Assembly (NCBI GenBank): GCA_039091335.1
Contig: JAWCME010000002.1
Span: 13,263-77,262 of the forward strand
Length of the DNA: 64,000 nucleotides
Direction of reading: 5' to 3'
Source: Candidatus Aenigmatarchaeota archaeon
GTDB lineage: Archaea; Aenigmatarchaeota; Aenigmatarchaeia; CG10238-14; SCSR01
Numbering within the stretch: the first letter of the stretch is position 1; each line of letters starts with the position of its first letter. Position numbers: made by a program. Below are positions 18,001-21,000 of this stretch, in pieces.

Positions 18001-21000
18001 GTTACTAAAAACTTTTTTTGTTTTATCATAGCTTATTATTCATTTTGTTTTTAAATTTAAAAATTAAAAATATTTTAATTTACTTGGTGATTGTTTGGCT
18101 GTATTTAAGTTGGTAGTAAGCGAACCAGAAACAAAGAAGAGTTATCAGTTAGAAGTAGAGCAGAGTAAAGTTCAGTCTCTAATCGGAAAAAAAATTGGAG
18201 AAGAATTTCCTGGAGACCTTATTGGTTTAAATGGCTATATGTTAAAGATTACAGGAGGAACTGACAAGGATGGCTTTCCCATGCACCCATCTGTTTCTGG
18301 AATGGGAAGAAAAAAAGTTTTGTTGTCCTCTCCACCCTGTTTTCATCCAAGGTTAAAGGGGGAGAGAAGGAGAAAAACGGTAAGAGGAAACACAATAAGC
18401 GAAGATATAGTCCAAATAAATGTTAAGGTTACAAAAAAAGGAGAAAAGCCTTTAGAGGAATTAATCCCTGTTAAGCCCAAAGAAAAGAAAGAAGAGGAAA
18501 AAACAAAAGAGGAGATAGAAACAAAAACAGAAAAATAAATTACAAATAAAAATTTCATCTTTATTTTTATTTATTAGAAAATATTTGAAGGGGTGATGAA
18601 AAGTAACAAAAGAGATTAATCCAAAGCTAATACCTAAATGTAACATAGGTATGGTCGGACATTGCTAAAGCAACCGAAAACGTTGCGCATGGAAAGACAA
18701 GCCTAGTTGAAACAATTACTGGAAAGTCAACACTAATGCATTCTGAAGAATTGAAAAGGGGAATTACAATTCGCTTGGGTTATGCGGATGCAAAAATTTA
18801 CAAATGTATAAAATGTGGAAAATATTGTTCAAGCGAAAAATGTCCTTTCTGTTTTTCTGATTGTGAGCTTCAAAGAACAGTAAGTTTTGTGGACGCCCCT
18901 GGACATGAAACTTTAATGGCCACAGTTTTAACTGGTGCTGCATTAATGAATGGGGCGATTCTTGTGATTGCAGCAAACGAGAAGTGTCCTCAGCCGCAGA
19001 CTCGTGAGCATCTTACTGCTTTGGAAGTCGTTGGAATTAAAAATGTGATAATAGTTCAAAGCAAGATAGATTTGGTTACAGAAGAAAGGGCATTGGATAG
19101 CTATAAAGAAATAAAAGAATTCATTAAAGGAAGTAGCATAGAGAATTCCCCAATAATACCGGTTTCCTCTAAACAGAGAATAAACATAAGTTCAGTTATA
19201 GAGGCAATAGAGGAATTCATTCCAGACCCGGAATTAGATGAGAAAAAAGAACTGAGAATGCTTGTTGCAAGAAGCTTTGACATAAATAAACCTGGTACAA
19301 GCCCGGAAAAGCTTGTTGGTGGGGTTTTGGGTGGAGCAATAATTCAGGGAAAATTAAGAGTTGGGGAGGAAATTGAAATTAGACCAGGTGTAATGGTCGG
19401 CTCAAAAAGAATTCCGCTTTTTACTCATGTTTTAGGGATTAAAAAATCGAATATAGAAATGGAAGAGGCTGGTCCAGGAGGTTTGCTTGGGGTATTAACT
19501 GGCTTAGACCCATTTTTAACTAAGTCTGATTCTCTTGTGGGAAGTGTGGTTGGTCTTCCAGGAAAAATTCCAGAAACAAGAGAGGAGTTAAGAATAAATG
19601 TTAATTTACTTGAGAGAGCAGTTGGTTCAAAGGATTTGAGCGCAATATCTCCAATTAAAATAGGAGAAGAGCTTATGATAAACGTAGGAACAGCACGATC
19701 TATAGGAAAGGTTAGCTCAATTAAAAAAGATTATATTGAATTAAAACTTAAAATACCAGTATGTGCTGAGGAAAAAGAAAGGATAGCGATTTCTAGGTCA
19801 ATCCTTGGAAGATGGAGGCTTATTGGTTGGGGTGTAATAAAGTAGTTTATGCGCAGAATACAGATGCTTGAATGCTTTTTCCAATTGGAGGCACTATTCT
19901 ATAAACACATGTTTTTGGACCTGTGCAATCAGTGTTTTTGAGTGTTCCTGTCTTACCAGGCTCTATTCTACTAGTATCACCAGTTACTGAGTCAGCGGCA
20001 TAATTTCCACCAGAAGTTCTTATTACTGTTATACTACCACAAGTCGCCGCATTTTCTGATATTGTACAACTACCACTTACAAAACTTATATCAGATGTTC
20101 CTATATTTCTTATCATTATAGTTACAATACCTCCTGTACAGTAACTATCGACTATTTCAATTCCCTGAGTAGCTCCAGTAAAAACCCCGCTTATATACAT
20201 ATAAGCCATTCCTGCCAAAGCTATTGTTATTACTAACATTAAAATAGTAGCAATTACAGCAGAAACACCCTTTTCCATTCCTTCACCTTATTAATTTTTG
20301 TTTTTTTTAATTTAAATATTATTTAAATAGAAAATATTTTTGTGAGAATTGTTTTTGACACCAATTTCTTAATCGATATGATAAAGTTTAAGGTGGATAT
20401 AGAAGAAATAGAAGAGCTGGTTGGAAAATGTAATTTTTTTATTTTTGATAGTGTAATAGAGGAGCTAGAAAAAATTGCAAAAACAAGAAAAAAAGATGGT
20501 ATGAACGCGAAGCTCGCGCTAAATTTTTTAAAGTCTAGAAAATTTAAAACAATTAAAACGAAGTTTAAAAGCACAGACGAGGCTATAGTCAATAGTTTAG
20601 AAAAGGATTCAATAGTTGCCACTAACGACTCGGAGTTGAGAAAAATATTAAAAGCTAAAGGAATAAAAACAATTTATTTAAGATCCAAAAAACATTTAGA
20701 GGTAGGTTGATAAAATGGTAAACTATTGGAAAGAATTGCCCACAGGTCCAAATCCGCCAGAAGAAATATTCATAGTTGTGGAAATACCAAAAGGATGGAG
20801 AAATAAAATAGAGTTTGATAAAGAATTAAATGTTTTTGTCCTTGATAGAGTTTTATATTCTCCCTTTCACTATGACTGGGCAGATTATGGCATAATTCCA
20901 AAGACTTTTTGTGAAGACGGAGACCCAGCAGATGGCTTTGTTTTGATGAGAGAAGGAACCTTTCCTGGTTGTGTGATTAAATGTAGGCCGATTGGGTTGC

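What a model noticed while it worked through the whole genome (the two positions that open the first line are those of the whole stretch)
18600..19845. aIF2-gamma carries the eukaryote-type alanine at the 'strictly conserved' archaeal D19
After removal of its intron, aIF2-gamma reads GHVAHGKT: the catalytic Asp19 of archaeal aIF2-gamma is Ala, the state of GAP-dependent eukaryotic eIF2-gamma, while switch-1 Gly is kept. This convergent change marks family SCSR01 and sister families and predicts slow or GAP-assisted GTP hydrolysis.
Evidence so far: Exon sequence in calls 9 and 14. Of 27 relatives read, 9 have Ala and 2 Ser (all 8 of the family, plus three sister families) and 16 have Asp (3 of one family of the order, 13 of other orders); intron-free relatives give the same VAHGK, so it is no splice artefact.
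(Added by a program. Inside this text positions count along the whole contig: contig position 13,263 is position 1 of the stretch shown here. "Call 12" and the like, gene names such as g00115 and contig names such as C1 are that model's own, and its searches are not shown. The text may have been shortened before it was handed on; [...] marks where a part breaks off. The agent that wrote the report below was given it as the finding of a first reader that could run no searches.)

Follow-up and report, generated by a model that had tools for sequence, protein, structure and literature searches.

The report
Archaeal initiation GTPase lacking catalytic aspartate
In a group of small archaea the factor that delivers the first tRNA has lost an aspartate thought to be universal in archaea, as eukaryotes did but with no sign of the eukaryotic helper protein, and its gene appears to begin at an unusual codon (GUA) instead of AUG.

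Summary
aIF2-gamma reads VAHGKT (Ala codon 18685-18687), downstream of a 19-nt bulge-helix-bulge intron, and contigs from three runs agree. 'Eukaryote-type alanine' is too narrow. In the order, 81 of 97 readable genes lack Asp19 (Ala 45, Ser 32, Gly 4): one loss, then 11 swaps among small residues. A second loss, separate on the gene tree, marks five other DPANN genomes (AU p=2e-5). Only one other column changes in both lineages: switch-1 residue 35 (Asp/Ala/Ser to Leu/Gln; Val in yeast and mammals). No eIF5-like paralog or new partner arginine was found. Some bacterial EF-Tu show the same pair of changes, so Asp loss does not require a protein GAP. Best reading: a re-tuned GTP site with lower intrinsic rate, activated on the 30S complex; a dedicated GAP is about 15%. 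Across relatives a GUA or UUC codon sits 5-7 nt after the Shine-Dalgarno site, also in Asp-keeping genomes, while ribosomal-protein genes use ATG. This suggests start-codon autoregulation. No activity or translation was measured.

The parts
18095..18538 (+). ribosomal protein S6e gene, the usual upstream neighbour of aIF2-gamma
   Evidence: NCBIfam PRK04290 above cut-off; neighbour in 29 of 30 Asp-less loci
18589..18596 (+). Shine-Dalgarno site AGGGGTGA
   Evidence: sequence; best SD match; GGTG-to-ATG spacing in this genome peaks at 5 nt, then 6
18594..18599 (+). two in-frame stop codons (TGA TGA) that close the aIF2-gamma frame upstream; an out-of-frame ATG at 18596 opens only 7 codons
18603..18605 (+). 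proposed non-canonical start codon GTA (inferred, not shown by ribosome or peptide data)
   Evidence: 7 nt after the SD GTG; GTA or TTC at this place in 39 of 63 ATG-less homologs
18603..18660 (+). exon 1 of aIF2-gamma (N-terminal tail, G1 strand NIGMVG)
18661..18679 (+). 19-nt bulge-helix-bulge intron in the His codon before the P-loop Val
   Evidence: canonical BHB; same site in 6 relatives, one of them Asp-keeping; splicing itself not observed
18680..19845 (+). exon 2 of aIF2-gamma (spliced product 407 aa if begun at GTA)
18685..18687 (+). GCG, Ala at the position of S. solfataricus Asp19
18733..18735 (+). CTA, Leu at switch-1 position 35, the column that changes with Asp19 loss
   Evidence: Leu in 67 of 67 Asp-less genes of the order, Gln/Leu in 5 of 5 of the second lineage, Asp/Ala/Ser in 58 of 58 Asp-keeping genes
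18760..18768 (+). switch-1 Gly44-Ile-Thr46, retained (eukaryotes have Asn44)
   Evidence: RGx[TS] in 72 of 72 Asp-less genes
18892..18906 (+). DAPGH with catalytic His97, retained
   Evidence: DxPGH in 72 of 72 Asp-less genes
20342..20710 (+). PIN-like gene, usual downstream neighbour (a pilin gene on the other strand, 19847-20278, lies between)
   Evidence: the PIN label is recalled from the sequence motif and operon order, the NCBIfam hit is weak

Best explanation
This is the genome's single, otherwise intact aIF2-gamma whose GTP site has been re-tuned. Shown: Asp19 was lost once in the ancestor of five families, has since swapped among Ala, Ser and Gly without returning, and was lost separately in a small second DPANN lineage; in both, switch-1 residue 35 became a larger uncharged residue. 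Inferred: without Asp19 the second Mg2+ cannot bind, so free aIF2 hydrolyses GTP about ten times more slowly. The change at 35 stabilises or locks the new site, and the needed activation comes from the ordinary 30S initiation complex (aIF1, h44, tRNA accommodation) rather than from a new dedicated GAP. Separately and earlier, the gene came to start at a weak NUN codon (GUA, UUC) placed by a strong SD site, which most likely ties aIF2-gamma synthesis to start-codon stringency, as poor starts do for eIF1 and bacterial IF3.
For: One Asp loss and 11 small-residue changes on an 81-row tree with the trait columns masked. Two origins; one clade rejected, p-AU 2.3e-5. Only columns 19 and 35 differ fully in both lineages. 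Among 98 readable distant homologs, 21 of 29 with Asp19 have Asp35 against 1 of 69 without. 26 of 28 Ala-type EF-Tu with a canonical switch I have Asn at the matching site. R43, G44, T46 and H97 are invariant in 72 of 72. aIF2-beta was found once in 29 of 30 and 5 of 5 genomes, aIF1 in 30 of 30 and 5 of 5, aIF2-alpha in 29 of 30, with no lineage-specific Arg in beta or aIF1. D19A rates and the aIF1-switch contact are from PMC4357699 and PMC6412873. Start codon.
Against: No rate was measured, and D19A kinetics come from a protein with Ser35, not Leu35. No ribosome-dependent acceleration of aIF2 has been seen in vitro (PMC4357699 Discussion). Ala/Ser/Gly at this position is also what eukaryote-type homologs carry, which fits an Arg/Lys finger. 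No whole-proteome screen for a GAP was done. Start-codon use in ribosomal-protein genes does not differ between Asp-less and Asp-keeping genomes (180 of 195 vs 182 of 199 ATG), so no downstream effect is visible. The co-variation rests on two archaeal origins.
Confidence: 0.5

Rival explanations
1. A protein supplies an Arg/Lys finger in trans: these archaea have independently become GAP-dependent, as eukaryotes did with eIF5.
For: The site accepts only small residues (11 swaps, no return), as in eukaryote-type homologs. Small residues here are typical of P-loop NTPases that do not use K+ (PMC6310460). The second Mg2+ sits where the RasGAP arginine lies (PMC4357699). Column 35 also parallels eukaryotes.
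Against: No second eIF5/eIF2-beta-domain protein over the cut-off in 36 genomes searched; no W2 domain in the own genome, 87% complete. No gene next to aIF2-gamma or beta marks both Asp-less lineages. G44 is kept. EF-Tu tolerates the same change in bacteria.
Confidence: 0.15
2. Full cis compensation: Leu/Gln35 repositions switch 1 so that a residue of gamma itself (for example Arg43, three residues before Thr46 like the intrinsic finger of G-alpha proteins, recalled) replaces the second cation, and the rate is unchanged.
For: Strict intramolecular co-variation of 19 and 35; Arg43 invariant; beta and alpha have little effect on the Ss rate.
Against: Arg43 is present in Asp-keeping archaea and in eukaryotes, whose eIF2 is nearly inactive alone. 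The paper passages read do not mention residue 35, and no coordinates were available to test contact.
Confidence: 0.2
3. Target-site escape: the exposed P-loop Asp was lost to avoid an Asp-specific modifying toxin or antagonist.
For: An antibacterial ADP-ribosyltransferase modifies EF-Tu Asp21, and D21A/E/N variants are not modified (PMC9825190). Glu occurs in one other family (5 genomes) and His in many aEF2 of the phylum.
Against: That toxin is reported not to modify other elongation factors. No archaeal enzyme with this target turned up in the papers read. aEF1A and aIF5B of this genome keep Asp. It does not explain column 35.
Confidence: 0.07
4. Artefact or dead gene: assembly error, mis-splicing or a pseudogene.
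For: The gene has an intron and no canonical start; no splicing endonuclease was found in this genome.
Against: Contigs of three runs are identical over 18562-18894. It is the only copy. Most Asp-less relatives are intron-free. Five of 5 intron-bearing relatives have the endonuclease. All other motifs are intact.
Confidence: 0.02
5. For the start site only: translation begins at the in-frame GTG inside the SD-like motif, and the fourth residue is hydrophobic for protein reasons.
For: 56 of 63 ATG-less genes do have some in-frame GTG or TTG upstream.
Against: 7 genes, this one included, have no ATG/GTG/TTG in the open frame. In others the GTG is GGG or GCG, shifted out of frame, or followed by an in-frame stop, yet the NUN codon stays. 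Codon choice is TTC in 19 of 20 and GTA in 20 of 21, against 7.1 and 5.6 expected from the same genes' bodies (kin are not independent).
Confidence: 0.12

Closest known systems
Archaeal aIF2-gamma (S. solfataricus, Pyrococcus, M. jannaschii; TIGR03680, PRK04000)
   Same: Three-domain protein, zinc knuckle, G44, T46, H97, single copy, S6e neighbourhood; best PDB hits E 7e-146.
   Different: Asp19, called strictly conserved in archaea (PMC4357699, PMC6412873), is Ala/Ser/Gly; position 35 is Leu and Trp33 is lost; BHB intron; no canonical start codon.
Eukaryotic eIF2-gamma with its GAP eIF5
   Same: Ala at 19 and an uncharged residue at 35 (Val in yeast and mammals; Gln frequent in distant eukaryote-type homologs); Trp33 absent.
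   Different: G44 kept (Asn in eukaryotes); no eIF5-like second copy or W2 domain found; scores and tree are archaeal.
Bacterial EF-Tu with Ala/Ser/Gly at Asp21 (Planctomycetota, Chloroflexota, Parcubacteria records)
   Same: Same P-loop change; in the canonical-switch type, Asn replaces Asp at the site matching 35 in 26 of 28.
   Different: Elongation factor activated on the 70S ribosome; the Planctomycetota type has a rebuilt switch I.
Start-codon autoregulation of eIF1 (poor context; title seen in a reference list) and bacterial infC (AUU; recalled)
   Same: An initiation-fidelity factor whose own gene has a conserved weak start while neighbouring translation genes use ATG.
   Different: Here the factor is aIF2-gamma, and the codons (GUA, UUC) mismatch AUG at two positions. 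A 2021 review says non-canonical translation in archaea had been shown only for elongation and termination (PMC8211752). Feedback is untested.
BHB introns in archaeal protein-coding genes (cbf5; PMC2738675, search listing only)
   Same: Canonical bulge-helix-bulge at the exon junction.
   Different: Located in aIF2-gamma; present in 7 of the 90 order loci read.

Membership tests
archaeal aIF2-gamma | scores above curated cut-offs of TIGR03680 and PRK04000 | tested here: met
   568 vs 514.5 and 571 vs 315 bits
archaeal aIF2-gamma | P-loop Asp19 binding the second Mg2+ | tested here: not met
   Ala
archaeal aIF2-gamma | switch-1 Gly44, Thr46 and switch-2 His97 | tested here: met
archaeal aIF2-gamma | aIF2-alpha, aIF2-beta and aIF1 encoded in the genome | tested here: met
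   one each
archaeal aIF2-gamma | GAP-independent GTP hydrolysis near 0.4-0.6 per min | not testable with these tools
   needs purified protein
GAP-dependent eukaryotic eIF2-gamma/eIF5 system | small residue (Ala) at 19 | tested here: met
GAP-dependent eukaryotic eIF2-gamma/eIF5 system | Asn at 44 | tested here: not met
   Gly in 72 of 72
GAP-dependent eukaryotic eIF2-gamma/eIF5 system | eIF5: second eIF5/eIF2-beta-domain protein with a W2 domain | tested here: not met
   one PF01873 gene over cut-off per genome where found; no PF02020 in the own genome, 87% complete
GAP-dependent eukaryotic eIF2-gamma/eIF5 system | an unrelated protein acting as GAP | tested here: inconclusive
   only neighbours and the alpha, beta and aIF1 alignments were screened
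BHB mRNA intron | 4-bp helix between two 3-nt bulges; removal restores the frame | tested here: met
BHB mRNA intron | spliced transcript observed; endonuclease present | tested here: inconclusive
   no spliced form in the contigs laid; endonuclease not found in the own genome, found in 5 of 5 relatives
start-codon autoregulated initiation factor genes (infC, eIF1 type) | conserved weak start specific to the factor's gene | tested here: met
start-codon autoregulated initiation factor genes (infC, eIF1 type) | translation rises when the factor or fidelity falls | not testable with these tools
   needs reporter or reconstitution

The most novel reading that the evidence does not exclude
Two DPANN lineages have independently rebuilt aIF2-gamma into the eukaryote-like, finger-ready state (small residue at 19, uncharged residue at 35) and depend on an unrecognised archaeal GAP, while the gene senses start-codon stringency through a double-mismatch GUA/UUC start. 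They would be living intermediates on the path from Mg2+-assisted aIF2 to eIF5-dependent eIF2.
Probability: 0.15. Interest if true: 0.92.

Novelty: new variant of a known kind. Interest (0 to 1): 0.72.

Why it matters
The accepted account of why archaeal aIF2 needs no GAP rests on Asp19 being strictly conserved. Natural, essential-looking aIF2-gamma genes without it, arising twice and with one co-changing residue, give a direct test of that account and of the order of events that made eIF2 depend on eIF5: a D19A/S35L pair in the standard S. solfataricus assay answers part of it. The conserved GUA/UUC start on the same gene would be a candidate for programmed non-canonical initiation in archaea, and it means these genes are likely mis-annotated at their 5' ends.

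Tried and rejected
Extra A at 18599-18602 as an assembly slip that would restore an ATG start: rejected; contigs of three runs show no indel and relatives share the layout. Intron or intein escape as the cause: the intron occurs with Asp, Ala and Ser alleles, and intein-like inserts after GK occur in Ser alleles. General laxity of start-codon choice in the Asp-less clade: not seen in 16 ribosomal-operon families (a coarse test, since any ATG within 25 codons counts). New Arg in partners: none in beta (15 vs 14 rows) or aIF1 (16 vs 15 rows); beta column 65 is Lys/Arg in 15 of 15 but Pyrococcus has Lys there too. For alpha only 18 of 30 were parsed (7 vs 11 rows), with several basic columns that cannot be separated from kinship. 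The beta comparison with the second lineage parsed 1 of 5 rows and was not used. Minimum-energy folding of 18640-18700 did not show the BHB (z -0.4); the motif was found by direct search. No RNA holder listed; the one metatranscriptome-labelled run did not cover the junction. The initiator tRNA was not among the 16 tRNAs found. Eight G44-keeping, Asp-less distant proteins could not be placed taxonomically. Kuhle and Ficner 2014 was not readable, so it is known here only through PMC4357699 and PMC4342817. No structure or complex prediction was run. No supplements were read; fuller alignments in them could already contain exceptions.

Full report
Observation. Window 18682-19842 translates without a stop as VAHGKT... 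and passes both curated aIF2-gamma models. It is the only match in the genome, which is 87% complete. Against solved structures the Ala falls on S. solfataricus Asp19, while Arg43, Gly44, Thr46 and His97 are kept. The upstream part of the G1 strand lies in another frame. A canonical bulge-helix-bulge defines a 19-nt intron at 18661-18679 whose removal gives NIGMVGHVAHGKT, and six relatives have the same motif. The Ala codon (18685-18687) lies outside the intron. Logan contigs from three runs of one study match 18562-18894 with no difference; one run may be the source.

Distribution. Of 118 genomes of the order, 108 matched. I read position 19 in 97 of the 108: 85 from 90 fetched loci and 12 more from the pattern listing. 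Five families lack Asp in all 81 genes read (Ala 45, Ser 32, Gly 4); two families keep it in all 16. In the window's own family the split is Ala 34, Ser 23, Gly 3. On an 81-row tree with the trait columns masked there is one Asp loss and 11 changes among the small residues, and both Ser codon classes occur. Of 173 genomes sampled from other orders of the phylum I read 150: 145 Asp and 5 Glu, none small; 23 were unread. A scan of GTDB for non-Asp codons stopped at 120 rows: 76 bacterial EF-Tu-like, 38 of this clade, 5 other DPANN records and 1 eukaryote-type sequence. In a 171-genome sample of the phylum around one of those five, 118 matched and 117 had Asp; only the centre had Gly. The five form their own clade (SH-aLRT 98) apart from the order's clade (99), and joining the two is rejected (p-AU 2.3e-5, 45 rows). 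This is a gene tree, and transfer of the gene was not tested. Asgard, TACK and Euryarchaeota were not sampled directly; none was named among the 120 rows.

A second site moves with it. Across 130 full-length genes, only columns 19 and 35 differ completely in both Asp-less lineages: position 35 is Leu in 67 of 67, Gln or Leu in 5 of 5, and Asp/Ala/Ser in 58 of 58 Asp-keeping genes; Trp33 is mostly lost too. Yeast and mammalian eIF2-gamma have Val35 and Gln/His33. Among 150 distant representatives, 98 could be read: 21 of 29 with Asp19 have Asp35, against 1 of 69 without, and the eukaryote-type ones also vary among Ala, Ser and Gly at 19. By count-back from the switch-1 Thr, position 35 matches E. 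coli EF-Tu Asp50 (numbering and its role near the Mg2+ water are recalled). Of 28 Ala-type EF-Tu with a canonical switch I, 26 have Asn there, and in 5 of 5 bacterial genomes checked the Ala copy was the only pattern match. No Asp21 control set from the same bacterial groups was tallied.

What the literature says. PMC4357699 (passages, and sections on GTP hydrolysis and Discussion read) calls D19 and G44 strictly conserved in archaea, gives 0.35 vs 0.031 per min for gamma vs D19A, 5e-4 per min for eIF2 without eIF5, and reports no acceleration in reconstituted initiation assays. PMC6412873 (passages) repeats the conservation claim and places the aIF1 N-terminal domain on the switch regions. 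PMC4342817 (passages) lists exceptions in other trGTPases but none for aIF2-gamma. PMC6310460 and PMC9599734 (passages) describe Asp/Asn at this position in cation-stimulated NTPases and a small residue in most others. PMC9825190 (passages) shows a toxin modifying EF-Tu Asp21. PMC4620562, PMC6237735, PMC7531240 and PMC8211752 were read as passages. Nine searches listed no paper reporting Asp-less archaeal aIF2-gamma or a non-AUG start for it. The library lacks most subscription papers, I judged most listings by title and abstract start, and no supplements were read.

Search for a GAP. One eIF5/eIF2-beta-domain gene over the cut-off was found in the own genome, in 29 of 30 chosen relatives and in 5 of 5 of the second lineage; no W2 domain in the own genome. 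aIF1 and aIF2-alpha are ordinary in number. Beta and aIF1 alignments show clade differences but no new invariant Arg. No neighbour gene within 1.5 kb marks both Asp-less lineages. This was not a whole-proteome screen, so an unrelated GAP is not excluded.

The start codon. The frame is closed by TGA TGA at 18594-18599 and has no ATG, GTG or TTG before NIGMVG. Of 139 homolog 5' ends, 63 have no in-frame ATG. In 56 of these the codon 5-7 nt after the best SD match has U in the middle (GTA 20, TTC 19), 9 to 36 codons ahead of the domain in all but one case (62), and 7 have no canonical start at all. Taking an in-frame GTG in SD context as anchor, the third codon after it has a middle T in 48 of 49 genes, against 1 to 12 of 49 at the six other positions. 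Synonymous choice is skewed: TTC 19 of 20 and GTA 20 of 21, against 7.1 and 5.6 expected. The trait occurs in Asp-keeping genomes (11 of 13 in the sister family, 5 of 21 in other orders; more) and is mostly absent in one Asp-less family (1 of 15), so it is older than and independent of the Asp loss. Ribosomal-operon genes use ATG in 180 of 195 and 182 of 199 cases. In the own genome about four other genes look as if they start at ATA or CTG. These counts come from related genomes and overstate independence.

Mechanism. Shown: the sequence state, its fixation, two origins on the gene tree, the co-change at 35, intact catalytic motifs, and the codon pattern at the 5' end. Inferred: loss of the second Mg2+ lowers intrinsic hydrolysis about tenfold but leaves it well above unassisted eIF2; residue 35 adapts switch 1 to the new site; activation is supplied by the normal 30S complex (0.5). 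Rivals are full cis compensation (0.2), a dedicated GAP (0.15), escape from an Asp-specific toxin (0.07) and artefact (0.02). For the 5' end, initiation at GUA/UUC is likely (about 0.85); that it serves feedback control is an analogy to eIF1 and infC (about 0.55).

Verdict. New variant of a known kind; interest 0.72.

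Noticed in passing
G000:C1 near 83440-83470 (+), outside the window: The aIF5A-like gene is broken by an in-frame stop within a short insert between SGK and HGAAK that looks by eye like a second BHB intron, at the hypusine-site region (labels recalled).
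   Followed up: no
G000:C26 near 24478 (+): aEF2 has His instead of Asp at the same P-loop position: in all 10 Asp-less genomes of the order with a match, but also in 4 of 11 Asp-keeping Aenigmatarchaeota genomes with a match.
   Followed up: partly
L091-L210: 76 bacterial EF-Tu-like genes with Ala/Ser/Gly at Asp21 (Planctomycetota, Chloroflexota, Parcubacteria and others), in 5 of 5 genomes the only pattern match; two switch-I types.
   Followed up: partly
G281, G250, G282, G263, G146 (family f22): aIF2-gamma has Glu at position 19 in 5 of 5 read, with Gly at 35 in the one full locus read.
   Followed up: no
L010, L066, L072, L088, L444: Intein-like inserts (ending HN) right after GK of the aIF2-gamma P-loop, next to the BHB intron site; other intron positions in L445 and L446.
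   Followed up: no
G000:C1 64411 (-), C23 47507 (-), C1 111587 (+), C28 9196 (-): Four more genes seem to start at ATA or CTG after an SD site (gatD-like, NrdR/ATP-cone-like, DUF460-like, DHH-like; labels recalled from motifs). aIF2-alpha of G022 and G023 has no canonical start and a CTG in place.
   Followed up: partly
L150: A eukaryote-type (yeast-like) eIF2-gamma on a contig of a record labelled Alphaproteobacteria; probably a binned contaminant.
   Followed up: partly
G000 whole genome: No tRNA splicing endonuclease (PF01974) found, although several tRNAs look intron-containing; probably missing from the 87% complete assembly.
   Followed up: partly
window 19847-20278 (-): A type IV pilin-like gene sits convergently between aIF2-gamma and the PIN-like gene in 26 of 30 close loci and in none of the Asp-keeping loci.
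   Followed up: no
P0033, P0036, P0048: Divergent aIF2-gamma-like proteins with Ser/Ala at 19 and Gly44 from unplaced contigs; possible further origins, archaeal or viral.
   Followed up: partly
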